Shown here piece after piece: positions 12,944-22,066 of a stretch of 64,000 nt of DNA; the stretch's first letter is position 1, and every line of letters begins with the position of its first letter. Below the pieces are notes generated by a model. It saw only the letters and a list, made by a program, of their open reading frames with translations, was not told the origin of the DNA and ran no database searches. The DNA lies in contig DASQOL010000004.1 in NCBI GenBank assembly GCA_035644475.1, forward strand, positions 1,288-65,287. The letters run 5' to 3'. This DNA comes from Gammaproteobacteria bacterium (GTDB lineage Bacteria > Pseudomonadota > Gammaproteobacteria > Steroidobacterales > Rariloculaceae). A program made the position numbers and the translations under genes.

Positions 12944-13783
12944 TCAGCGCGCGTCCGCCACGGAGTTACTCACCGGATGCGTCGGCGCCTTGTTCCGCGC
13001 CTGCTCGTAGAACGGCATCATCTTCGGCGCCAGCGCGGCGAGCGTCTGCTGGCGGTTGCCGGGGGCCGGGTGCGTGCTCAGGAACTGCGGCGGCCCGCCG
13101 CCCCCGACTTTCTCCATCTTCTGCCATAGCGAGATTGCGGCGTTCGGGTTGTAGCCGGCTTTCGCCGCGAGCTCGATGCCGATGCGATCGGCCTCCGACT
13201 CCGCGGCGCGGCTGTTCGGCAGCTGGATGGCGACCTGCGCCGCGAGCGCCACGGCGCCGAGGGCCGCGCCGTCGTTGTCCTTCGACAAGGCGCCGACCAC
13301 CGCGAGGCCCGCGCTGGTGGCGAGCGCCACCGACATGCGCTCGGCCGTGTGGTTCGCGAGCGCGTGGCTGATCTCGTGGCCGAGCACCTGCGCGAGCTCG
13401 TCGTCGCTGGGGTCGATCTTCTGCAGCAGGCCCGTGTAGACGGCCATGCGTCCGCCGGCCATGCACCACGCGTTCACGGTCTCGGGGTCGTCGATGACCT
13501 GCACGCTCCATTCCCAATTGGCCGTGTCGGGCCGGAACGCGATCGCCTGCGCGACCAGGCGCTCGGTGATCGCGTCGACGCGGCGCGTGACGCGCGCATC
13601 GGTCACGAGCTTCCCTTCCTTGCGCAGATCGCCCATCTGCGTCGCGTACGCCTCCTTGGACGCGGCGATCGCGTCGTTCTCGGAGACCAACGCGAGCGTG
13701 TGCCGCCCGGTGGGGCTCGTGGCGCAGGCGCCGAGCGCGACGAGGATCAACGCCGTCGCGCCGAATCGGGTCTTCGATCTCAT
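12944..13783 (-). CDS. M48-family zinc metallopeptidase lipoprotein
   Basis: Lipoprotein signal LILVALGAC, HEISHALANH (HExxH), and a downstream ESEAD glutamate motif. The ATG at 13783 follows GAGGTGAGG. The track ORF (to 14242) over-extends. Confidence 0.85.
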   Translation of the reverse strand: MRSKTRFGATALILVALGACATSPTGRHTLALVSENDAIAASKEAYATQMGDLRKEGKLVTDARVTRRVDAITERLVAQAIAFRPDTANWEWSVQVIDDPETVNAWCMAGGRMAVYTGLLQKIDPSDDELAQVLGHEISHALANHTAERMSVALATSAGLAVVGALSKDNDGAALGAVALAAQVAIQLPNSRAAESEADRIGIELAAKAGYNPNAAISLWQKMEKVGGGGPPQFLSTHPAPGNRQQTLAALAPKMMPFYEQARNKAPTHPVSNSVADAR

Positions 13784-13860: not shown

Positions 13861-14268
13861 TCAAGGGGCCACGTCGCACTTGGATTCCCCGTAGGGGCCC
13901 GTGGGCTTGCACGAGTCCTTGAGCCCTATGATGCTCGCGCCGAGCGCCGCACCGATCACCATGGCGACGGTCTTGCCCGGCGCGCTCTTGCGGTGCTCGA
14001 CCGCGGTGATGTCGGCCACGCGCACCGGTACAGTCTCGCCGCCCGCTGTCTTGCCGTGCAGCACGCCGTCCTCGATCGACACGACCTCGAGCTCGGCGCT
14101 CGCGCTCGCCGCCGTGGTCACGCGCACCGTCTCGCCGGCATGCACGAGCGCAGGCAACGCGGCCAGGTCGGAGCCCTTGACGATTTGCCGCGTGGTGCAA
14201 CCCGCGGCCGCGACGAGCGCAATCACGACGCACGAGCAGCACTTGAGACTCGCCGTGAAGGCAGACAT
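13861..14268 (-). CDS. Small lipoprotein, unknown function
   Basis: Signal/lipobox VIALVAAAGC, and a C-terminal Gly/Ala-rich hydrophobic stretch (TVAMVIGAALGASIIGL). It sits between the two M48 paralogs. Confidence 0.6.
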   Translation of the reverse strand: MSAFTASLKCCSCVVIALVAAAGCTTRQIVKGSDLAALPALVHAGETVRVTTAASASAELEVVSIEDGVLHGKTAGGETVPVRVADITAVEHRKSAPGKTVAMVIGAALGASIIGLKDSCKPTGPYGESKCDVAP

Positions 14269-14379
14269 CCGGTTCCCCCGCGTTCCGATCGGAACGTGCG
14301 GGATGCTACGTCGCACGGACGGGTGGCGCAACGCGCGCGGGTGCGGCTACGGCTCGCGGCCGGCGACGGCGGCGCGGGA

Positions 14380-15210
14380 TCAGCGCGGGATGTCGACGGC
14401 TTGGATCGGGAACGTCGGCGGGGTGCCGGCCTTGGCCTGCTCGTAGAACGGCCGCATCTTCGGCCCGAGCTCGGCGAGCTTCTGCTGGCGGTTCGCTGGG
14501 CTAGGGTGGGTGCTCAGGAACTGCGGCGGACCCGCGCCCGAAACTTGCTCCATCTTTTGCCAAAGGCTGATCGCCGCGGCCGGATCGTAGCCCGCCTTCG
14601 CGGCGAGCTCGATGCCGATCTGATCCGCCTCCGATTCCGACGTGCGGCTGTTCGGCAGCTGAACGGCGTATTGTGCCGCGAGCGCCGTGGCGCTCATCGT
14701 CGCCACCGAGTTCTTCGAGAATAGCCCAGCCGCGGCGACGCCCAAGTTGGTCGCCATCGCGACCGACATGCGCTCGGCCGTGTGATTGGCCAGCGCGTGG
14801 CCGATCTCATGGCCCATGACCTGCGCGAGCTCGTCGTCGCTGGGCATGATCTTCTCGAGCAGGCCCGTGTACACGGCCATGCGGCCGCCGGCCATGCACC
14901 ACGCGTTCACGGTCTCGGGATCGTCGATGACCTCGACGCTCCATTCCCACATCTGCGTCTCGGGCCGGACCGTGATCGCCTGCGCGACGAGCCGGCTCGT
15001 GATCCGGTCGACACGGCCCGTGATCGCGGCGTTCGACACGAGCTTGCCGGACTTGCCGAGATCGTTCATCTGGGTGAGATACGCCTCTTTCGACGCGGAG
15101 ATCGCGCTCTCCTCCGAGACGAGTGACAGCTGCCGCCGGCCGGTCGGGCTCGTGGCGCACGCCGCCAGCGCCGCAGCGAGCACCAGCAACCCGATCGTTC
15201 GGGTGTTCAT
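14380..15210 (-). CDS. M48-family zinc metallopeptidase lipoprotein (paralog)
   Basis: Lipobox LAAALAAC, HEIGHALANH, ESEAD. It is collinear with, and highly similar to, 12944-13783 at both protein and DNA level. Confidence 0.85.
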   Translation of the reverse strand: MNTRTIGLLVLAAALAACATSPTGRRQLSLVSEESAISASKEAYLTQMNDLGKSGKLVSNAAITGRVDRITSRLVAQAITVRPETQMWEWSVEVIDDPETVNAWCMAGGRMAVYTGLLEKIMPSDDELAQVMGHEIGHALANHTAERMSVAMATNLGVAAAGLFSKNSVATMSATALAAQYAVQLPNSRTSESEADQIGIELAAKAGYDPAAAISLWQKMEQVSGAGPPQFLSTHPSPANRQQKLAELGPKMRPFYEQAKAGTPPTFPIQAVDIPR

Positions 15211-15344
15211 CGAACGGCTCCTATGCGTGCGCGACGCCGGTCTTGTGACACGCGGGCTGTTGCGACCGATATGGGACCACGGCCTCATGGCCCCCACCGC
15301 CGGGCCGCGGTAGGTTCGACAGGCCTGCGGCCGCGCCGCAGCGG

Positions 15345-16664
15345 CTAGAGCTTACGCAACGCAGCGCCCGCCTCGGCCCGCGGCGCGAGCGGCGTTCGCG
15401 CGGCGCGCAGCACCTGCTCCATGTGCCCGAGCGTGCGCGCGAGCGCGCCGCGGTTGTCGGTGACCAGCGTCTGCGCGGCCGCGCCGGCCGCGCGGCGCAG
15501 GTCCGGCTGCTCGTAGTAGAGCGCCACGGCCGCGGCGAGCTCCTCCACGTCGTGCACCTGCCGCGCCGCGCCGCGCTCGATCGCCATCGCGGCGACCTCC
15601 TCGAAGTGAAACATGTGCGGCCCGAAGATCACGGGCACCGCCACGGCGCACGGCTCGAGCACGTTCTGGCCGCCTTTGGGCACGAGGCTGCCGCCGACGA
15701 ACGCGACGTCCGCGGCGGCGTAAAGACGTTGCAGCTCGCCCATCGTGTCGCCGACGAGCACGGCCGTGCCGTCGGGCAGCGACCCGGGCGTGCGGCCGCG
15801 CAGCGCGACGCACAGGCCCCTGCGGCGCACGGCGCGCGCGACGGCGGTGAACCGCTCCGGGTGACGCGGCACGAGCACGAGCAGCAGATCGGGCCAGCGC
15901 GCGCGCAAGATCGCGAACGCGTCGAGGACCTTGCGCTCCTCGCCCGCGTGCGTGCTTGCAGCGATCCATATCGGGCGGTCGCGGCCCCATGCCGCGCGCA
16001 GCGCGCGGCCCTCCTCGAGCAGCCGCGCCGGCAAGGCCACGTCGAACTTCAGATTGCCGGTGACCTTGATCGCGGATTCCCGCGCGCCGAGGTTGCGCAG
16101 CCGCTGCGCGTCGGTGCGCGTCTGCGCGCACAGCAGGTCGGCCTGCAACAACATCCGCCGCGCGATCTTCGGCACCCGCAGATAGCCGCGCAGCGACGCT
16201 TGCGAGACGCGCCCATTCACGAGCAGCAGCGGGATGTACCGCCGGGCGCACTCCGCGAACAGGTTCGGCCAGAACTCGGTCTCGGCGATCACCGCGACTT
16301 CCGGATGCACGCGATCGAGGAAGCGCCGCACGGCGTCGGGGAAGTCGTACGGCACGTAGCAGTGGCTCACGCGCTCGCCGAACAGATCGCGCACTTGGTC
16401 GGAGCCCGTCGGCGTCATCGTCGTCACGACGAGGCGATGCTGCGGATACCGCGCGGCGAGCGCTTCGATCAACGCCGCCGCGGAGCGCACCTCTCCCACC
16501 GACACCGCATGCACCCAGATCGAGCGGCGCCCACCGAGCGGCGCCACGAACCCGAAGCGCTCGGGCCACCGATGCCAGTACGCGGGATAGCGCAGCCCGC
16601 GCCAGACGAGGTTCGCGAGCGCGTACGGAAAGAGCAAGTAGACGGCGACGGACCAGAACGTCAC
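15345..16664 (-). CDS. waaA: 3-deoxy-D-manno-octulosonic acid (Kdo) transferase
   Basis: Sequence WVHAVSVGEVRSAAALIEAL...ETEFWPNL...LVNGRVS...GGSL.P.GGQN.LEP is the signature layout of WaaA/KdtA. The GTG start at 16664 overlaps the upstream stop (GTGA). The track ORF to 17138 is an over-extension. Confidence 0.85.
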   Translation of the reverse strand: MTFWSVAVYLLFPYALANLVWRGLRYPAYWHRWPERFGFVAPLGGRRSIWVHAVSVGEVRSAAALIEALAARYPQHRLVVTTMTPTGSDQVRDLFGERVSHCYVPYDFPDAVRRFLDRVHPEVAVIAETEFWPNLFAECARRYIPLLLVNGRVSQASLRGYLRVPKIARRMLLQADLLCAQTRTDAQRLRNLGARESAIKVTGNLKFDVALPARLLEEGRALRAAWGRDRPIWIAASTHAGEERKVLDAFAILRARWPDLLLVLVPRHPERFTAVARAVRRRGLCVALRGRTPGSLPDGTAVLVGDTMGELQRLYAAADVAFVGGSLVPKGGQNVLEPCAVAVPVIFGPHMFHFEEVAAMAIERGAARQVHDVEELAAAVALYYEQPDLRRAAGAAAQTLVTDNRGALARTLGHMEQVLRAARTPLAPRAEAGAALRKL

Positions 16665-17350
16665 GGCGTCTGAGGCACGATCTCGGTGGGGACGGCTTGG
16701 CGGGCGGCGAAGTAACGCGCGTACTCCGCGTCCCACGCCACGCGCGACGCGACTACGGCGTCGAACGCGCCGAGCAGGCCGAGCACGAGCTCGCACACCT
16801 CGCGCACGGCGTGCGCGCTCGCAGAGTGACCGGTGATGTAGTCGCAGAGATTCTGGCGCGTCACGTAGTCGTGCAGCAGCGGGCTCGCCGTGCGCCGCAC
16901 CAGCACGCGCACGCCGCAGGCGAATGCCATGCCGAGGTCGTTGACGTCGTCGAAGATGCAGAGCAGCTGCTCGCTCGACAGGCGCTGGCTCGCGCAAAAC
17001 GCCTCGATCGCGGCCGTCTTGTTCCGAGCGCCGTGGTACACGGCGTGGAAGTGCTCGCGGCGCGCGAACTCGCGCGCCGACGGATTGTCGGCGCCGGTGA
17101 TCAGCGCCGCCACGGGCAGCGTGCCGTGCGCGCGCCACAGCGCGTAGCGCAGGAGATTGGTGCCCATCGAATCGGGCTCGTTGTAGGTGCTCGCGGACCC
17201 GTCGCCCTTCGCGCCGTCGTTGAACACGCCGTCCCAGTCGGAGACGAGGCCGCGGATCTCGCGGAGCCGCTCATGGAGCGTGCCGACCGGCGTCAGGAAC
17301 ACTCCGCCGAGCTTCGAGAACCGCGCCTCGATCTCGTGATCGAGCGACAT
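16661..17350 (-). CDS. HAD-superfamily phosphatase, KdsC-like (Kdo-8-phosphate phosphatase-like, long form)
   Basis: HAD motif I (LVSDWDGVFNDG), ITGADN...AVYHGARNK...FDDVNDLGM, collinear with KdsC motifs. It is longer than the classical KdsC and sits in the Kdo operon. Confidence 0.65.
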   Translation of the reverse strand: MSLDHEIEARFSKLGGVFLTPVGTLHERLREIRGLVSDWDGVFNDGAKGDGSASTYNEPDSMGTNLLRYALWRAHGTLPVAALITGADNPSAREFARREHFHAVYHGARNKTAAIEAFCASQRLSSEQLLCIFDDVNDLGMAFACGVRVLVRRTASPLLHDYVTRQNLCDYITGHSASAHAVREVCELVLGLLGAFDAVVASRVAWDAEYARYFAARQAVPTEIVPQTP

Positions 17351-17352
17351 GC

Positions 17353-18390
17353 TCAGAGGTGCTCTTGGCCGAGCAGTCCGAGCTTGATCAGGTCCTGCAC
17401 GTCGAGCACGCCCACCGGCTTCGCGCCGTCGACCACGACGATGCTGTCGATTTCCTTGCTCTTGAAGACCTTCACGGCCTCGTTGAGCAGGGCGTCTTGA
17501 CTGATCGTGACGGGCGACCCGGAGAAACCGATGTCGACGAGCTTCTTGTCGAGGATCGTGCGGCCGCCACTCTGCAGCTTGCGGCGCAGGTCGCCGTCGG
17601 TGAACACGCCGGCCACGGCGCCCTTGCCGTCGACGAGCGTGACGGTGCCGAGCCGCGACTCGGTCATCTTGACCATCGCGTTGGTGAGCGTGTCGCTCGT
17701 CTCGCACACGGGATTGGCGGCGCGGACCACGTCCTTCACTCGCGTGGTCATCAGCGCGGTGTGCTCGCGGAACTGCGCGGTGCCGAGCGCCGTGAGCGTG
17801 TTCTCGCAGAGGCTCTTCATCACGCCGAACGGCATCGTGCAGACGTGCACGCCGGTGAGCATCGCCTGACGCACGTGCTCCGCGTGGCGCACCGACGAAA
17901 ACATGACCTTGCTGTCGTAGCCGTAGCGGTCGATCACGTCGACGCACTGCTCGAAGAGCTGAATCGCGTCGTGGCCCTGGTCCTGCATCCGGCCCGCGAG
18001 CGGGCAGATGAACGACGCGCCGGCCTCCATCGCCATGTACGCCTGATTGAGCGTGTAGATAAGGTGCACGTTGACGCGGTGGCCCTTGGCCACGAGCCGG
18101 TTGCAGGCCTTCACGCCGTCGTTCGAGATTGGCACCTTGAACACGGGCTCGCGCTCGAGCGGCAGGGCCAGGAGCCGCTCCGCCTCCGCGACGATCGCGT
18201 CGGGCGTGTCGCCGAGCGCCTCCACTTGCAGCTCGGGCACCATGCCCGACAGCTTGACGATCGCGCCGTCGACGTCGGTGATGCCGTGCTTGTGCATGAA
18301 CGTGGGCGTCGTGGTGAGCCCCTTGACGAAGCCGAAGGCGAACGCCGCTTCGATTTCCTTGAAATCAACGGAGTCGAGATAGAGTTCCAT
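17353..18390 (-). CDS. Fructose-6-phosphate-aldolase/TalC-type transaldolase-family domain fused to a C-terminal CBS pair
   Basis: The N-terminus MELYLDSVDFKEIE...GLTTTPTF...VFKVPIS (Schiff-base Lys context) matches the short FSA/TalC class. The C-terminal ~120 aa carries two CBS-type repeats (VKDVVRAANPVCETSDTL...GVFTDGDLRRKL and PVTISQDALLNEAVKVFKSKEIDSIVVVD...GVLDVQDLIK). RBS is GAGGAG. Confidence 0.8.
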   Translation of the reverse strand: MELYLDSVDFKEIEAAFAFGFVKGLTTTPTFMHKHGITDVDGAIVKLSGMVPELQVEALGDTPDAIVAEAERLLALPLEREPVFKVPISNDGVKACNRLVAKGHRVNVHLIYTLNQAYMAMEAGASFICPLAGRMQDQGHDAIQLFEQCVDVIDRYGYDSKVMFSSVRHAEHVRQAMLTGVHVCTMPFGVMKSLCENTLTALGTAQFREHTALMTTRVKDVVRAANPVCETSDTLTNAMVKMTESRLGTVTLVDGKGAVAGVFTDGDLRRKLQSGGRTILDKKLVDIGFSGSPVTISQDALLNEAVKVFKSKEIDSIVVVDGAKPVGVLDVQDLIKLGLLGQEHL

Positions 18391-18397
18391 GCGCTCC

Positions 18398-19231
18398 TCA
18401 GTGCACCGTCTGGCCACGGACCAAATTGTGAATGTCGAGGAGTGGCCGCACGAACTTCTCGAGATCGTCCAAGTAGTACTGGCTCGCGGCGTCGCAGAGC
18501 GCCTCGGGCGGGTTCGGGTGCGCCTCGATGAAGATGCCGTCGACACCAGCCGCCACGCCCGCGCGCGCGAGCGTGTCCAAGAACTGCCGCGCGCCGCCCT
18601 TCGGGTCCTTGCTCGGGATGCCGTACTTGCGGATCGAGTGGCCGATGTCGAACACCACCGGATAGCCGATCTGGCCGAGCAGGAAGAAGCTGCGCGGGTC
18701 GACTATCAGATCGTTGTACCCGAACGTGTAGCCGCGCTCCGTGAGGATGATCTTGCTGTTGCCGCTAGCCTCGACCTTCTGGCACGGCTTGGCCATGTTC
18801 TCGGGCGCGATGAACTGGCCGTGCTTGATGTTGACCACCGCGCCGGTCTTCGCGGCGGCGACCACGAGCTCGCTCTGCATGCAGAGGTACGCGGGGATCT
18901 GGAGCACGTCCACGACCTCGGCCGCCGGCGCCGCCTGATAGGGATAGTGGATGTCGGTGAGGATCGGCAGCTCGAACTCGCGCTTGACCTTCGCGAGCAG
19001 CTTCAAGCCCTCCTCGAGGCCCGGTCCCTGGTAGTAGTCGAGCGAGCTGCGGTTGTCCTTCGAGAACGACGACTTGAAGATGATCGGCAGCTCGAGGTCC
19101 GCGGACATCTTCTTCAGCCGCTCGGCCGTACGCATCATCAGCGGCTCCGCCTCGATCACGCACGGGCCTGCGATGAGGAACATCTGATCGGAGCCGCAGT
19201 CGATGTCGCCGACCATCACGTGCTTCTTCAT
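18398..19231 (-). CDS. kdsA: 3-deoxy-8-phosphooctulonate (Kdo-8-P) synthase
   Basis: Sequence FLIAGPCVIE...FKSSFSKDNRSS...ILTDIH...LQIPAYLCMQS...NIKHGQF...ILTERG..FGYN.L.VD...DI.HS matches KdsA along its full length. Confidence 0.9.
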   Translation of the reverse strand: MKKHVMVGDIDCGSDQMFLIAGPCVIEAEPLMMRTAERLKKMSADLELPIIFKSSFSKDNRSSLDYYQGPGLEEGLKLLAKVKREFELPILTDIHYPYQAAPAAEVVDVLQIPAYLCMQSELVVAAAKTGAVVNIKHGQFIAPENMAKPCQKVEASGNSKIILTERGYTFGYNDLIVDPRSFFLLGQIGYPVVFDIGHSIRKYGIPSKDPKGGARQFLDTLARAGVAAGVDGIFIEAHPNPPEALCDAASQYYLDDLEKFVRPLLDIHNLVRGQTVH

Positions 19232-20601
19232 AGACGGGAGTCCAAGTCGTTGGCAGGTCGCGACATTTTGCGGTCAAAGCGCGGCGCGGGCAAGCGGCGT
19301 CGGGTCAACTCGAGCAGCAACTCGTAGTTGCGGGCGGTCGCGCCCTGCCCCGCACGCACCACCTGCTGCGCGCGGCGGCCGAGCTCGCGCCTGCGCGGCT
19401 CGTCGAGGATGAGCTCGGCGACCGACGCCGCGAGCTCTCGCTCGTCATGCACCATGACGCCGGCATCGGCCGCGAGCAGATCTTCCACCGTCTCCTTGAA
19501 GCTGAAATTGTACGGCCCGAACAGCACCGGCACCGCGAGAATCGCGGGCTCCATCAGGTTATGGCCGCCCTTGTTCGCGCCGCGAAAGAACAAGCTGCCG
19601 CCGACGAACGCGAGATCCGCGGCCGCGTAGAGGCGGCCGAGCTCGCCCACGGTGTCCACGATCAGAATTCCGTCGCGCCCGGGCGGCGGCCGCGCCGCGC
19701 CCACCGCCGACTTGAGCGTCGCCGCGAAGCCGCGCTCGCGCGCGCGCCGCTCCACCTCGGGCGCGTCCTTGGGATAACGCGGAACGACGATCAGCGCGGC
19801 GCGGTCGTTCGCCGCGCGAGCGCGCGCGTACGCGTCGAGCAGCGCCTCGTCCTCGCGCTCGTGGAGGCTGCCCCCGACGATGACGAGGTCCTCCGGCGCG
19901 TAGCCGAGCTCGCCGCGCAGCTCGAGCCTGGCGGCGTCCTCCGCCAGCGGCTGCGCGCTGCGCGGGTGCGGAGGCTGCGTGAGGTCGTACTTCATGTTGC
20001 CGGTCACGCGCATGCGCTCCGCGGCCACCCCGAGTGCCGCGAAGCGCTCGGCGTGCTCCTCCGTCTGCACCGCAAGCAGGTCGATCTGCCGCAGCACGCG
20101 CGGAATCAGCCCGAGCCGCGTGTGCGTGCGAAACGACTTCGGCGACATCTTGCCGTTCACGATCGCCACCGCCGCGCCGTAGCGGCGCGCGCAGCCGATC
20201 AAGTTCGGCCAGAATTCCGACTCCACGATGATCACGAGCCGCGGATCGAGCCGCTTGAGATAGCGCCGCACCACGAACGACAGGTCGAACGGCAGCGGCA
20301 GCACGCGATGCCGGGAGTACAGCTTGCGCGCCGCGGCGAGCCCGGTGGAAGTGAAGGCCGTGATCACGAGCGGCACTTCGGGAAGGTCGCGCTCGAGCAG
20401 CGCGATCAGCGGCTTGAGCAACGAGACCTCGCCCGCCGAAGACCCGTGCAGCCAGATGCTCGCTTCGAGCCGCGGGCCCAAGCTCGCGCCGAAGCGCATC
20501 GCGAGATCGCGCCGGGCGGGGCCCGCGACGAAGCGATAGAGGATCCACGGGGAGAGCACCACGCAAGCGACGAGATAGGCGAAGTCGAGCACGAGCCCCA
20601 T
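19228..20601 (-). CDS. waaA: Kdo transferase, second paralog
   Basis: Sequence WLHGSSAGEVSLLKPLIALL...ESEFWPNL...IVNGKMS...GGSLF.RGANKGGHNLMEP. It has a 4-nt overlap with the kdsA start and is the first gene of the operon. Confidence 0.85.
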   Translation of the reverse strand: MGLVLDFAYLVACVVLSPWILYRFVAGPARRDLAMRFGASLGPRLEASIWLHGSSAGEVSLLKPLIALLERDLPEVPLVITAFTSTGLAAARKLYSRHRVLPLPFDLSFVVRRYLKRLDPRLVIIVESEFWPNLIGCARRYGAAVAIVNGKMSPKSFRTHTRLGLIPRVLRQIDLLAVQTEEHAERFAALGVAAERMRVTGNMKYDLTQPPHPRSAQPLAEDAARLELRGELGYAPEDLVIVGGSLHEREDEALLDAYARARAANDRAALIVVPRYPKDAPEVERRARERGFAATLKSAVGAARPPPGRDGILIVDTVGELGRLYAAADLAFVGGSLFFRGANKGGHNLMEPAILAVPVLFGPYNFSFKETVEDLLAADAGVMVHDERELAASVAELILDEPRRRELGRRAQQVVRAGQGATARNYELLLELTRRRLPAPRFDRKMSRPANDLDSRL

Positions 20602-20625
20602 CGGCCATATTCTAGTCTGGCACTA

Positions 20626-20731
20626 GGGTCAGACCCCAGGGACAGGCTGGGCCAGCGTCGTCGTGCTAGGGTCAGACCCCATCGGCACCGGCGTCGCAGG
20701 CTGCGGCCGCCGCGCGCATGGGGTCAGACCC
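20626..20731. promoter_or_regulatory. Three copies of the perfect 11-bp palindrome GGGTCAGACCC upstream of the Kdo operon
   Basis: Copies lie at 20626-20636, 20669-20679 and 20721-20731, with starts 43 and 52 bp apart. The first two share the longer CTAGGGTCAGACCCC. The sites lie between the EAL gene stop (20735) and the waaA start (20601). Confidence 0.45.
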
Positions 20732-20734
20732 TCG

Positions 20735-22066
20735 TCAGGCTTCGGCCTGCTGGAGCCAGAGCTTCGCGACGGGCATGCGGCGGCTCGCCGTCGCGAGGTA
20801 GTGATCGAGCCACTCGGGAACGAGGTCGCCGCGCATCGGCCGGCCGATGAAGAAGCCCTGCGCCATCTCGCAGCCGATGTCGGTCACGACGGCGAGGTTC
20901 TCGGCGCTGTCCACGCCTTCGGCCACCACGCGCATGCCGAACGCGTGCGCGAGCGCGATCACGGTCTTGACGATCTCCCGATCCTTGTCGTCGAGAGCGA
21001 TCGTGGCGATGAAGCGCTTGTCGATCTTGATCTCGGTCGCGGGGATCTGCTTGAGATAGCTCAGCGAGGAATAGCCCTTGCCGAAGTCGTCGATCGCGAG
21101 CTCGATGCCGAGCTTGCGGACCTTCTCGAGGCACGCGAGGGAAGAATCGTCGCTCTGCACCAAGCTGTCCTCGGTGAGCTCGATCGTGAGGCCGAAACCG
21201 TGCGCGTCGAGCGCCGTCTTGAGCGTGCGCAAGCGCGTGAGGAACTCGCCCTCCACGAGCACCTGCGGCGAGACGTTCACGGCCACGGAGAACGGCTTCG
21301 GCAGCTCCACCCAGTCGGACAGCCGCGCCGCGATCTTGTCGAACACGAGCCAGGTCATCGGCACGATGCTCCCCGAGCGCTCGGCGAGCGGCACGAAGTC
21401 GCTCGCGGGCACGAATCGCCCCGACTGCGTGCGCCAGCGCACGAGCGCCTCCACACCGCAGACGCGGCGTTCTCCGATGTCGATCTTCGGCTGGAAGTAG
21501 ACCTCGAGCTGGTTCTGCTGCACGGCCTGCTGGAGCTCGGTCTCGAACTTCCAGAGCGCGGCCTGCTGCTGCGTCGCGTCGGGCCGGTAGATGTCGAACG
21601 ACAGCTCGTTCTCGCGTGCCTCCTTGAGGGCTAGCTCGGCCCGGCGGAACAACGTCGCCGCGTCGTCGGCATGCGACGGGTACACGGCAACGCCGAGCGT
21701 GAGGTCGACGATGAACGTGTCGGAGGCGACCTTGAGCTGCGGCGGATTGTCCTCGGTGAGGCCGATCGCCGCATCCATGACCGCCGACATCGAGTCGACG
21801 TCGAGCAGCACGGCGAAGCGGCGCTCGGAGAGGCGGATGATCGGGGTCTTCGGCGGCAGGATCTCGCGGAGCCGTTCCGTATAGCCCGTGCAGAACTGCT
21901 CGCACTGCTCGTGGCCGAAGGTCGTGGCGATGCGATTGAACGCGTCGAGCTGACCGAGGAGCAGGCCCGCGAGCCGGCCGTGCTGACCCTGCTTCAGGAA
22001 TTGCTCGATGAAGCGGATGCTGGCGCTTCGGTGCTTGCCCGAACCGGCTTCCTGCTCCGCACCCAC
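20735..22066 (-). CDS. Degenerate-GGDEF / EAL domain protein (c-di-GMP phosphodiesterase-type)
   Basis: The EAL domain is intact (GVEALVRW, ELTED, DDFGKGYSSLSYL, KIDKRFI, VVAEGVDS, QGFF). The upstream GGDEF-like domain has SERRF where GGDEF would be. Confidence 0.85.
   Translation of the reverse strand: MGAEQEAGSGKHRSASIRFIEQFLKQGQHGRLAGLLLGQLDAFNRIATTFGHEQCEQFCTGYTERLREILPPKTPIIRLSERRFAVLLDVDSMSAVMDAAIGLTEDNPPQLKVASDTFIVDLTLGVAVYPSHADDAATLFRRAELALKEARENELSFDIYRPDATQQQAALWKFETELQQAVQQNQLEVYFQPKIDIGERRVCGVEALVRWRTQSGRFVPASDFVPLAERSGSIVPMTWLVFDKIAARLSDWVELPKPFSVAVNVSPQVLVEGEFLTRLRTLKTALDAHGFGLTIELTEDSLVQSDDSSLACLEKVRKLGIELAIDDFGKGYSSLSYLKQIPATEIKIDKRFIATIALDDKDREIVKTVIALAHAFGMRVVAEGVDSAENLAVVTDIGCEMAQGFFIGRPMRGDLVPEWLDHYLATASRRMPVAKLWLQQAEA

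What the first reader, a model, noticed from the sequence alone, without database searches (positions are those of the whole stretch)
17353..18390. FSA/TalC-type aldolase fused to a CBS pair occupies the KdsD slot of a Kdo operon
The operon reads waaA, kdsA, this gene, kdsC-like, waaA. All genes are tightly packed or overlapping (GTGA and ATGA junctions). Canonical Kdo pathways make arabinose-5-phosphate with KdsD/GutQ, which is a SIS domain followed by a CBS pair. Here the CBS pair is retained but the catalytic domain is a class-I aldolase of the fructose-6-phosphate aldolase/short transaldolase type (MELYLDS..., Schiff-base Lys in VFKVPIS). FSA-type enzymes are known from biocatalysis to condense glycolaldehyde with glyceraldehyde-3-phosphate to give D-arabinose-5-phosphate. 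A non-orthologous route to the Kdo precursor, or a transaldolase-type feed into it, is therefore a concrete hypothesis. No SIS-domain gene and no kdsB is present in this window.
Basis: partly seen in the sequence, partly recalled or inferred. Interest (0 to 1): 0.8.

Follow-up and report, generated by a model that had tools for sequence, protein, structure and literature searches.

The report
Transaldolase-like enzyme in KdsD's slot
In this bacterium and in many unrelated ones, the operon that makes the essential outer-membrane sugar Kdo has an unusual transaldolase-family enzyme where the usual first enzyme (KdsD) sits. The new enzyme keeps KdsD's regulatory tail, which suggests an undescribed way of making the Kdo precursor arabinose-5-phosphate.

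Summary
Window 17353-18390 (-) encodes a 345-aa protein: a TAL_FSA barrel (Pfam 1e-33) fused to a CBS pair. It is packed between kdsA and a KdsC-like phosphatase and flanked by two waaA genes.

The CBS pair is specifically the KdsD/KpsF type. The catalytic domain is closer to short transaldolases than to FSA. It keeps the Schiff-base Lys85, Glu57 and the phosphate site. It also carries a family-specific His109/Cys129/Leu131 triad in place of Thr/Ser/Phe (or Tyr in FSA).

This catalytically intact form lies directly beside kdsA, kdsB or kdsC in 17 of 17 loci from a genome-wide scan across many phyla, and in five further loci. One exception was found.

In 80 metagenomic kdsA loci, canonical SIS-CBS kdsD lies near kdsA in 32, usually directly downstream. 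The fusion occupies that slot in 2. No locus has both. No SIS domain was found in 485 kb around fusion genes.

The gene is therefore most likely a non-orthologous replacement of KdsD's catalytic domain that supplies arabinose-5-phosphate. The chemistry is untested: glycolaldehyde plus GAP, or a rearrangement of a pentose phosphate. Absence of kdsD from whole genomes could not be checked.

Lys-less relatives occur outside Kdo operons. No published description was found.

The parts
19228..20601 (-). waaA paralogue (Kdo transferase family, 457 aa), first gene of the cluster. It overlaps kdsA by ATGA.
   Evidence: Pfam Glycos_transf_N 6.9e-51. NF004388 290.8 bits, below the 438 cut-off. 39% identical to the second waaA. 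Junction confirmed.
18398..19231 (-). kdsA, Kdo-8-phosphate synthase (277 aa). It consumes arabinose-5-phosphate plus PEP.
   Evidence: NF003543 342.2 bits, above the 242 cut-off; TIGR01362 331 bits, above 314. Pfam DAHP_synth_1 2.7e-61.
17755..18390 (-). Catalytic domain of the fusion protein (residues 1-212): a transaldolase-family TIM barrel. It has Asp6, Glu57, Lys85 (Schiff base), Asn107, Arg134, Ser166 and Arg168, plus the family-specific His109, Cys129 and Leu131.
   Evidence: Pfam TAL_FSA 1e-33. PDB 1VPX 3e-36. AF2 pLDDT 91.5 and Foldseek TM 0.93, rmsd 1.3 A to 1VPX. Residue mapping.
17353..17754 (-). Linker and CBS pair of the fusion protein (residues 213-345, plus stop). It is of the KdsD/KpsF type and carries the GVFTDGDLRR motif.
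   Evidence: TIGR00393 kpsF 1.1e-18 (residues 215-329 against profile positions 154-267 of 268); KdsD NF008141 2.9e-15. PDB 4O9K, the CBS pair of an arabinose-5-phosphate isomerase, 1.7e-16. E. coli KdsD residues 205-328 hit only this part.
16661..17350 (-). Divergent KdsC-like HAD phosphatase (229 aa; DWDGVFNDG motif), presumed Kdo-8-P phosphatase. It starts 2 nt after the fusion gene's stop.
   Evidence: NF007019 KdsC 8.8e-12, but 45 bits against a cut-off of 208; no Pfam hit. E. coli KdsC 28% identity, 3.5e-07. Conserved downstream of the fusion in L001, L003-L008, L017, L026-L028 and L030.
15345..16664 (-). waaA, lipid IVA Kdo transferase (439 aa). Its GTG start overlaps the HAD stop (GTGA).
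   Evidence: NF004388 510.6 bits, above the 438 cut-off. Pfam Glycos_transf_N 1e-70. Junction confirmed.

Best explanation
The gene encodes the enzyme that supplies D-arabinose-5-phosphate (A5P) to KdsA in this organism. It is a non-orthologous replacement of the SIS catalytic domain of KdsD.

Shown: the protein joins a distinct subfamily of the transaldolase/FSA barrel to the same kind of CBS pair that KdsD carries. The subfamily is called 'EKHCL' here, for Glu57, Lys85, His109, Cys129 and Leu131. In Kdo operons of many phyla the gene occupies the position that kdsD occupies elsewhere (kdsB-kdsA-X-kdsC).

Inferred mechanism: Lys85 forms a Schiff base with C1 of open-chain A5P or of glycolaldehyde. 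Arg134, Ser166 and Arg168 hold the 5-phosphate, as they hold the phosphate of F6P in transaldolases. A5P is F6P without its C1 hydroxymethyl group and has the same stereochemistry. The residues that bind that hydroxymethyl group and the catalytic water in transaldolase (Ser, Thr, Phe) are the ones replaced by Cys, His and Leu.

A5P would then arise in one of two ways:
(a) Aldol addition of glycolaldehyde to glyceraldehyde-3-phosphate, the reaction E. coli FsaA performs in vitro.
(b) Retro-aldol and re-addition on a bound pentose phosphate, with no free glycolaldehyde. An example is C2 epimerisation of ribose-5-phosphate through an enzyme-bound glycolaldehyde enamine.

The CBS pair is inferred to give the same regulation as in KdsD, probably by a pathway nucleotide-sugar.
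For: 1. Domain identity.

2. The CBS pair is KdsD-type, not generic. kpsF scores 1.1e-18 and KdsD 2.9e-15, against 7e-08 for the next CBS family. The top PDB CBS hits are arabinose-5-phosphate isomerase fragments 4O9K, 3FNA and 3K2V.

3. Conserved context. In the genome-contig scan, all 17 confirmed loci (L003-L019) have kdsA, kdsB or kdsC directly adjacent. They come from Proteobacteria, Bacteroidota, Nitrospirota, Pirellulales, Pelagibacteraceae and other MAGs. kdsB-kdsA-X-kdsC occurs in L010, L012 and L014; kdsC-X-kdsA-kdsB in L009; kdsB-kdsA-X in L016 and L018. The context also holds in L001, in the closed Desulfobacterales genome CP070768.1 as waaA-kdsB-kdsA-X-HAD, and in a Thermonema genome as kdsA-X-HAD.

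4. Same slot as kdsD, and mutually exclusive with it. Of 80 metagenomic kdsA loci, 32 have SIS-CBS kdsD within 2.5 kb, mostly 0-180 bp downstream of kdsA and followed by kdsC. Two have the fusion there, and none has both. A SIS HMM finds nothing at E<=1 in the window plus 27 fusion loci (485 kb), and positive controls score 1e-90.

5. The signature defines a clade. Lys85/Glu57/His109/Cys129/Leu131 with the intact phosphate site occurs in 192 of 252 full-length family members (a further ~15 differ only at a non-core signature position or lack the N-terminus). Canonical TalC is E-K-T-S-F and FSA-like proteins are Q-K-T-S-Y. An NJ tree separates the groups.

6. Catalytic residues and operon membership go together. 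The Lys-less relatives examined are not in Kdo operons.

7. Chemical precedent. E. coli FsaA interconverts A5P and glycolaldehyde + GAP, with Km 0.65 mM and kcat 3.6 s-1 (PMC6900487).

8. Stand-alone EKHCL barrels without a CBS pair also lie next to kdsA (L013). This parallels the known CBS-less isomerases.
Against: - No biochemical data exist for any member.
- Absence of a canonical kdsD from the whole genome was not tested for any carrier. In many bacteria kdsD is far from kdsA, and 11 kdsA loci with 2.5 kb or more on both sides have neither gene.
- Free glycolaldehyde is not a central metabolite, and no conserved neighbour could supply it.
- The domain keeps the transaldolase-type Glu and lacks FSA's catalytic Tyr. 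Simple aldolase turnover, with release of the donor, is therefore not what the scaffold predicts.
- One catalytically intact member (bacterium 336/3, L025) has no Kdo neighbours.
- About 45 family members have lost the Lys, so the fold can persist without this chemistry.
- The residue roles (C1-OH pocket, catalytic water) come from recalled literature on TalB, TacTal and FSA. They were not measured here.
Confidence: 0.6

Rival explanations
1. It has the same pathway role (A5P supply, KdsD replacement) but the chemistry is the ordinary one: aldose-ketose isomerisation of ribulose-5-phosphate on the barrel. Glu57 and His109 would act as the acid-base pair, as in TIM-like enediol catalysis, and Lys85 would act as an electrostatic or binding residue rather than forming a Schiff base.
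For: - It needs only a central metabolite, which fits four-gene operons with no extra substrate-supplying gene.
- The invariant new His109 next to the conserved Glu57 resembles the catalytic pairs of sugar isomerases. That comparison is general knowledge.
Against: - The full Schiff-base apparatus (Asp6, Lys85, Asn107) and the phosphate site are conserved as in aldol-transfer enzymes.
- No transaldolase-family member is known to act as an isomerase.
- A Schiff base on a ketopentose would lead to dead-end Heyns-type products (chemical reasoning).
Confidence: 0.12
2. It is an ordinary pentose-phosphate-pathway transaldolase that acquired a CBS regulator. It is co-transcribed with Kdo genes only to balance pentose-phosphate supply, and a canonical SIS KdsD encoded elsewhere makes the A5P.
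For: - The best sequence and structure matches are true transaldolases.
- Glu57, Lys85 and the phosphate site are retained.
- Whole-genome absence of kdsD was not shown.
Against: - Thr, Ser and Phe, conserved in most canonical short transaldolases (39 of 80 single-domain representatives; most others vary only at Glu57 or at Phe), are replaced by His, Cys and Leu throughout the operon-linked clade.
- The CBS pair is the KdsD type.
- The gene fills the kdsD slot and never co-occurs locally with kdsD, although kdsD is next to kdsA in 32 of 45 informative loci.
- A canonical TalC found near one kdsD operon (L033) has the normal signature and no CBS pair.
Confidence: 0.13
3. It is an A5P-cleaving aldolase that works as an overflow or salvage valve. 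It degrades excess A5P to glycolaldehyde + GAP under control of the CBS pair, rather than making A5P.
For: - The FsaA reaction is reversible, and cleavage is favoured at low concentrations (PMC6900487).
- CBS control would suit a valve.
Against: - A degradative enzyme would not be expected to replace kdsD position for position in minimal biosynthetic operons that then lack any A5P source.
- It would release toxic glycolaldehyde.
Confidence: 0.06
4. The barrel is non-catalytic. The protein would be a regulatory or scaffolding subunit that senses a sugar phosphate or nucleotide-sugar.
For: Several clades of the family have lost Lys85, His109 and the Arg134 phosphate contact, yet keep an intact CBS pair.
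Against: - The window protein and all the operon-linked members examined keep the catalytic and phosphate-binding residues (L026's P0386 has Thr for Cys129).
- The three degenerate members whose loci were examined sit in a different, non-Kdo context.
Confidence: 0.04

Closest known systems
KdsD / KpsF / GutQ arabinose-5-phosphate isomerases (SIS domain + CBS pair)
   Same: - The same C-terminal CBS pair, including the G(I/V)FTDGDLRR motif.
- The same operon slot between kdsA and kdsC, or next to kdsB.
- The same inferred product, A5P.
   Different: The catalytic SIS domain is absent altogether and a transaldolase-family TIM barrel stands in its place. The chemistry therefore cannot be the SIS-type isomerisation.
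Short (TalC-type) transaldolases, e.g. T. maritima 1VPX, B. subtilis 3R8R, T. acidophilum 3S0C
   Same: - The fold: TM 0.93, rmsd 1.3 A.
- 30-38% identity.
- Asp6, Glu57, Lys85, Asn107, Arg134, Ser166 and Arg168 are conserved.
   Different: - Thr to His109, Ser to Cys129 and Phe to Leu131 throughout the clade. In the window protein Asn28 is also Thr.
- It carries a CBS pair.
- It sits in Kdo operons rather than with pentose-phosphate genes.
E. coli fructose-6-phosphate aldolase FsaA (1L6W)
   Same: - The same superfamily and Schiff-base Lys85, with numbering that coincides.
- FsaA is the only characterised enzyme of this fold shown to interconvert A5P with glycolaldehyde + GAP (PMC6900487).
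- Like FsaA (Ala129), the protein lacks the Ser that binds the donor's C1 hydroxyl. This last point rests on recalled literature.
   Different: - Only 24% identity; 1.6e-12 against 3e-36 for transaldolases.
- It has Glu57 rather than Gln59 and Leu131 rather than the catalytic Tyr131.
- TIGR00875 scores 135.9 bits against a cut-off of 245.95.
CBS-less arabinose-5-phosphate isomerases (e.g. the Bacteroides fragilis single-SIS enzyme; recalled from the literature)
   Same: They show that the catalytic module of this pathway step can exist with or without the CBS pair. The EKHCL barrel likewise occurs alone next to kdsA (L013, and 216-aa marine proteins).
   Different: They still use a SIS domain.
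Sulfofructose transaldolase (BmSF-TAL, 8BC2-8BC4/8C4I)
   Same: It is a precedent for a short transaldolase scaffold being recruited into a specialised pathway.
   Different: Its substrate and pathway differ, it has no CBS pair, and it lacks the His/Cys/Leu signature.

Membership tests
Transaldolase/FSA superfamily (Pfam PF00923) | Sequence match above Pfam's gathering score, and a TIM-barrel fold | tested here: met
   117.4 bits against a cut-off of 27. AF2 model pLDDT 91.5; Foldseek TM 0.93 to 1VPX.
Transaldolase/FSA superfamily (Pfam PF00923) | Schiff-base lysine on strand beta-4 | tested here: met
   Lys85 in VFKVP aligns with the catalytic Lys of 1VPX, 3R8R and E. coli FsaA.
Fructose-6-phosphate aldolase (FSA; TIGR00875 equivalog) | Score above the equivalog cut-off | tested here: not met
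   135.9 bits against 245.95.
Fructose-6-phosphate aldolase (FSA; TIGR00875 equivalog) | Catalytic Tyr131 and Gln59 (roles recalled from the literature) | tested here: not met
   Leu131 and Glu57 at the aligned positions.
Canonical short transaldolase (TalC type) | Glu-Lys-Thr-Ser-Phe active-site set (E60, K86, T110, S130, F132 in T. acidophilum numbering) | tested here: not met
   Glu and Lys are kept. Thr is replaced by His109, Ser by Cys129 and Phe by Leu131. 39 of 80 single-domain representatives carry E-K-T-S-F.
Canonical short transaldolase (TalC type) | Transaldolase activity (F6P + E4P to S7P + GAP) | not testable with these tools
   This needs an enzyme assay.
KdsD/KpsF/GutQ arabinose-5-phosphate isomerase (TIGR00393, NF008141) | N-terminal SIS (sugar isomerase) domain | tested here: not met
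   No SIS match in the protein, the window or 27 related loci.
KdsD/KpsF/GutQ arabinose-5-phosphate isomerase (TIGR00393, NF008141) | C-terminal CBS pair of the KpsF/GutQ type | tested here: met
   TIGR00393 positions 154-267 of 268, E=1.1e-18. PDB 4O9K 1.7e-16.
KdsD/KpsF/GutQ arabinose-5-phosphate isomerase (TIGR00393, NF008141) | Formation of A5P for KdsA | not testable with these tools
   Only inferred, from operon position and mutual exclusivity with kdsD.
Kdo biosynthesis and transfer operon | Presence of kdsA and waaA that pass curated equivalog cut-offs | tested here: met
   kdsA 342 bits, above 242; waaA 510.6 bits, above 438.
Kdo biosynthesis and transfer operon | kdsC (Kdo-8-P phosphatase) and kdsB (CMP-Kdo synthetase) | tested here: inconclusive
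   Only a divergent KdsC-like HAD is present (45 bits against 208). kdsB is absent from the window but present in the equivalent operons L009, L010, L012, L014, L016, L018, L019, L026 and L030.

The most novel reading that the evidence does not exclude
Many bacteria would start Kdo biosynthesis not by isomerising ribulose-5-phosphate but with Schiff-base aldol chemistry on a transaldolase-derived barrel. Carriers include Gammaproteobacteria from soil metagenomes, Thermonema and other Bacteroidota, Desulfobacterales, Nitrospirota, Planctomycetes and part of SAR11. The chemistry would be either a natural glycolaldehyde + GAP to A5P aldolase or a retro-aldol R5P/A5P epimerase. Regulation would come from the CBS pair inherited from KdsD. 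This would be a new enzyme activity for the transaldolase family and a second, non-homologous entry into an essential envelope pathway that is considered a drug target.
Probability: 0.45. Interest if true: 0.85.

Novelty: new variant of a known kind. Interest (0 to 1): 0.72.

Why it matters
Kdo is the conserved link between lipid A and the rest of lipopolysaccharide. The SIS-type isomerase KdsD is treated as the universal first step of its synthesis and as an antibacterial target.

A widespread, non-homologous replacement would have several consequences:
- A5P, and therefore LPS, can be made without KdsD in many lineages.
- Metabolic reconstructions that report a 'missing KdsD' could be corrected.
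- The transaldolase fold would gain a new natural activity. That activity may be the natural counterpart of the glycolaldehyde/A5P reaction that synthetic biologists now borrow from E. coli FsaA for ethylene-glycol assimilation pathways.
- The swap would give a clean natural experiment on what the KdsD CBS pair does, because the regulator was kept while the catalyst was exchanged.

The hypothesis can be tested directly, because cultured carriers (Thermonema spp., bacterium 336/3) and an E. coli kdsD gutQ tester strain exist.

Tried and rejected
1. Whole-genome test for a canonical kdsD in carrier genomes. This was not possible. The three protein searches never listed a KdsD from a carrier.

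2. Lys-less family members were examined as a possible refutation of catalysis. They proved to be derived clades in a different, non-Kdo context, so they do not bear on the window gene.

3. Search for a conserved neighbour that could supply glycolaldehyde or otherwise reveal the substrate. A Pfam summary of 75 neighbouring ORFs shows only polysaccharide-synthesis genes, radical SAM/SPASM proteins and unrelated genes.

4. Phage records. 503 hits, none covering 80% or more of the query; those listed are annotated transaldolase/talC or unannotated; none is a fusion.

5. Literature. Eight full-text searches found no description of a transaldolase-CBS protein in Kdo synthesis.

6. A single-sequence AlphaFold run of the CBS pair, meant to retrieve the title and ligand of 4O9K by fold search, gave pLDDT 38.5 and was unusable. 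My recollection that 4O9K contains CMP-Kdo therefore stays unverified.

7. The label 'FSA-type' was considered and rejected.

8. The TAL hit in the kdsD-containing locus L033 was checked as a possible co-occurrence. It is a canonical TalC with the normal signature.
Full report
**What is in the window**

On the minus strand five genes are packed head to tail:
- A waaA paralogue (19228-20601). It overlaps kdsA by ATGA.
- kdsA (18398-19231).
- The gene in question (17353-18390), 7 nt after kdsA. It starts at ATG 18390 with GGAG 7 nt upstream.
- A HAD-phosphatase gene (16661-17350), 2 nt further on.
- A second waaA (15345-16664). Its GTG start overlaps the HAD stop as GTGA.

kdsA and the second waaA pass NCBI's curated equivalog cut-offs (342 bits against 242; 510.6 against 438). 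The first waaA scores 290.8 bits, below its cut-off. The HAD protein resembles KdsC only weakly (45 bits against 208) and has no Pfam hit.

The 345-aa product of the gene in question has a TAL_FSA domain (Pfam E=1e-33, residues 3-215) and two CBS stretches (E=8.4e-15).

The window contains no SIS domain and no kdsB. This was tested by tblastn with E. coli KdsD and KdsB and with a SIS HMM built from 29 metagenomic KdsDs plus E. coli KdsD, with working positive controls.

**The two halves of the protein**

The C-terminal third is not a generic CBS pair.
- Its best family matches are KpsF/GutQ (TIGR00393, E=1.1e-18, covering profile positions 154-267 of 268) and KdsD (2.9e-15). The next CBS family scores 7e-08.
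- Its best solved relatives are the isolated CBS pairs of arabinose-5-phosphate isomerases: 4O9K at 1.7e-16, then 3FNA and 3K2V.
- E. coli KdsD aligns only to this part (residues 205-328), and the motif GVFTDGDLRR is shared.

The N-terminal two thirds is a confidently modelled TIM barrel (AF2 pLDDT 91.5). It superposes on short transaldolases (1VPX, TM 0.93, rmsd 1.3 A). By sequence it is much closer to transaldolases (1VPX 3e-36, 3R8R 3.7e-32) than to E. coli FSA (1L6W 1.6e-12). It fails the FSA equivalog model (135.9 bits against 245.95).

Residue-by-residue alignment gives this picture:
- Retained: Asp6, Glu57 (the transaldolase Glu; FSA has Gln59), the Schiff-base Lys85, Asn107, and the phosphate-binding Arg134, Ser166 and Arg168.
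- Replaced: the transaldolase Thr by His109, the Ser by Cys129 (FSA has Ala129), and the Phe (Tyr131 in FSA) by Leu131.
- In the window protein the TTNP asparagine is also Thr.

**This is a family, not an accident**

The exact protein is HZF27614.1, from a Gammaproteobacteria MAG. More than 120 clusters at 77% identity or above share its architecture.

An exhaustive search of 1.8 billion representative proteins found full-length fusion representatives down to 29% identity (alignment A1).

Of 252 full-length members collected, 192 carry exactly the signature D-TT[T]P-E-K-N-H-C-L-G-R-S-R, and a further ~15 differ only at a non-core position (for example Asn28) or lack the N-terminus.

Among the 80 single-domain representatives of 200-300 aa:
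- 39 have the canonical E-K-T-S-F set.
- 12 have FSA-like sets with Gln (4 of them Q-K-T-S-Y).
- About a dozen proteins of 210-230 aa carry the His/Cys/Leu set without a CBS pair.

A neighbour-joining tree, without support values, places all His/Cys/Leu sequences apart from the canonical ones.

**Genomic context is the main evidence**

A pattern scan of one genome for each of 185,579 species used the family-specific motif around His109. It returned 17 confirmed loci. They come from Proteobacteria, MAGs labelled Anaeromyxobacter, Bacteroidota, Nitrospirota, Pirellulales, Pelagibacteraceae single-cell genomes, a deltaproteobacterial MAG, and MAGs labelled Saccharibacteria or archaeal.

In all 17 loci a Kdo gene is directly adjacent:
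- kdsA-X-HAD in L003-L008 and L017.
- kdsB-kdsA-X-kdsC in L010, L012 and L014.
- kdsC-X-kdsA-kdsB in L009.
- kdsA-kdsC-X in L015.
- kdsB-kdsA-X in L016 and L018.
- kdsA-X in L011.
- A CBS-less X followed by kdsA in L013.
- X-kdsB in L019.

The same holds elsewhere:
- An 85%-identical relative on a 2.2-Mb contig (L001).
- A closed Desulfobacterales genome, as waaA-kdsB-kdsA-X-HAD (L026).
- A Thermonema genome (L027).

One catalytically intact member, in bacterium 336/3, has no Kdo neighbours within 10 kb (L025).

**The slot is KdsD's slot**

A scan of metagenome contigs with an alignment of the fusion-linked KdsAs returned 80 kdsA loci.
- In 32 of them a canonical SIS-CBS kdsD lies within 2.5 kb. 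In most it starts 0-180 bp after kdsA and is followed by kdsC about 1 kb downstream. kdsB often precedes kdsA.
- In two (L028, L030) the fusion occupies that position, followed by the HAD gene.
- In none are both present.
- The one locus with both a kdsD and a TAL hit (L033) has an ordinary TalC with the canonical signature, 3 kb away.

The SIS HMM finds nothing at E<=1 in the window plus 27 fusion loci, 485 kb in all.

kdsD adjoins kdsA in 32 of the 45 informative non-fusion loci. Its complete absence from about 14 independent fusion lineages is therefore very unlikely by chance.

In a KdsA tree the fusion-linked KdsAs mostly group together across phyla. This suggests the cassette travels as a unit.

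**Interpretation**

A four-gene operon kdsB-kdsA-X-kdsC encodes every step from A5P to CMP-Kdo except the making of A5P. X has kept the domain of KdsD that is not catalytic and exchanged the one that is. The simplest reading is that X makes A5P.

The residue pattern fits this, although the step is inference. A5P is F6P without its C1 hydroxymethyl group and has identical stereochemistry. The distance from the Schiff-base carbon to the phosphate is the same in both. According to the recalled literature on TalB, the T. acidophilum transaldolase and FSA, the replaced residues contact the donor's C1 hydroxyl and the catalytic water. The phosphate site and the Asp/Lys apparatus are untouched.

E. 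coli FsaA shows that this fold can interconvert A5P with glycolaldehyde + GAP (Km 0.65 mM, kcat 3.6 s-1; PMC6900487). That reaction is so far described as part of synthetic pathways.

Two facts argue against accepting the simple glycolaldehyde route without reservation:
- No operon encodes a glycolaldehyde source.
- The enzyme keeps the transaldolase-type Glu plus a hydrophobic residue where FSA has its catalytic Tyr. In transaldolases this arrangement favours keeping the carbanion intermediate on the enzyme.

A retro-aldol and re-addition on a bound pentose phosphate would need only central metabolites and is an equally reasonable candidate. One example is epimerisation of R5P to A5P through a Lys85-bound glycolaldehyde enamine. 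A Glu/His-catalysed isomerisation of Ru5P is a weaker third option.

**Degenerate relatives**

About 45 of the 252 family members form several clades, mostly from Bacteroidota. They have lost Lys85 (to Arg or Ser) and in most clades also His109 and the Arg134 phosphate contact, but keep an intact CBS pair. In the tree they nest beside the window/Bacteroidota clade.

Three of them were examined. All lie in a different conserved context, Phosphodiest-Peptidase_M61-gene, with no Kdo genes. Loss of catalytic residues thus goes with loss of the operon link. This supports rather than undermines a catalytic role for the intact form. Their own function is unknown.

**Limits**

- No member has been assayed.
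- I could not test whether carrier genomes lack kdsD altogether. Many bacteria keep kdsD far from kdsA, and 11 well-flanked kdsA loci had neither gene.
- The trees are distance trees without support values.
- Taxon labels of several MAGs (archaeal, Saccharibacteria) may reflect mis-binning.
- The role of the KdsD CBS pair is itself unsettled. My recollection that 4O9K holds CMP-Kdo could not be verified.
- Eight literature searches found no prior description. NCBI names the proteins only 'transaldolase family protein' or 'CBS domain-containing protein', and no curated NCBIfam model reaches its cut-off.

**Verdict**

The specific chemistry and the 'FSA-type' label are not.

I rate the A5P-supplying role at about 0.6, the novelty as a new variant of a known pathway, and the interest as high. 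The prediction is sharp, it concerns an essential envelope pathway, and it can be tested with existing strains.

Noticed in passing
L022 10001-11008, L023 10001-11005, L024 10001-11005 (proteins P0319, P0288, P0272; also P0126, P0130, P0140, P0147): Several Bacteroidota clades of the same TAL+CBS architecture have lost the Schiff-base Lys, the His and the phosphate-binding Arg134, but keep an intact KdsD-type CBS pair. They sit in a different conserved context (Phosphodiest, Peptidase_M61, the gene, then a convergent unknown protein of 1000-1300 aa) with no Kdo genes. They look like pseudoenzymes of unknown role.
   Followed up: partly
L009, L011, L012, L013 (and protein P0480): Complete kdsB-kdsA-TAL(-CBS)-kdsC cassettes lie among glycosyltransferase, sugar-nucleotide and radical SAM/SPASM genes on contigs of MAGs labelled Hydrothermarchaeota, Saccharibacteria, Thermoplasmatota, Pacearchaeota and Heimdallarchaeota. 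Either these contigs are mis-binned, or Kdo-type sugars are made in lineages without LPS.
   Followed up: no
L013 4966-5628; proteins P0485-P0503 (216 aa): The His/Cys/Leu barrel also exists as a stand-alone protein without the CBS pair. In L013 it overlaps the start of kdsA. Marine (Tara/ENA) 216-aa versions are 50-58% identical to the barrel of the SAR11-type fusion.
   Followed up: partly
window 20610-20735: The intergenic region between the GGDEF/EAL gene and the first waaA contains the 11-nt palindrome GGGTCTGACCC three times. It could be an operator or a REP-like element upstream of the operon.
   Followed up: no
window 12944-13771 and 14380-15297 (minus strand): Two tandem paralogous M48 metallopeptidase genes (Pfam 1.3e-36 and 3e-38) lie immediately downstream of the Kdo cluster. 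A small ORF with no family match (13861-14331) lies between them.
   Followed up: partly
window 15345-16664 and 19228-20601; also L001 7799-9112 and 11749-13074: The operon carries two waaA genes only 39% identical to each other. One passes the lipid IVA Kdo-transferase equivalog cut-off and the other does not. The pair is conserved in the 85% relative. This suggests division of labour between two Kdo transferases.
   Followed up: no
L003-L008, L017, L026-L030, window (KdsA proteins): KdsAs linked to the fusion from Gammaproteobacteria, Bacteroidota and Desulfobacterales cluster together in a distance tree, apart from most kdsD-linked KdsAs. This points to horizontal spread of a kdsA-fusion-HAD cassette. 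In this clade the HAD is a divergent, longer KdsC-like protein without a Pfam hit. In the low-GC lineages it is a canonical KdsC.
   Followed up: partly
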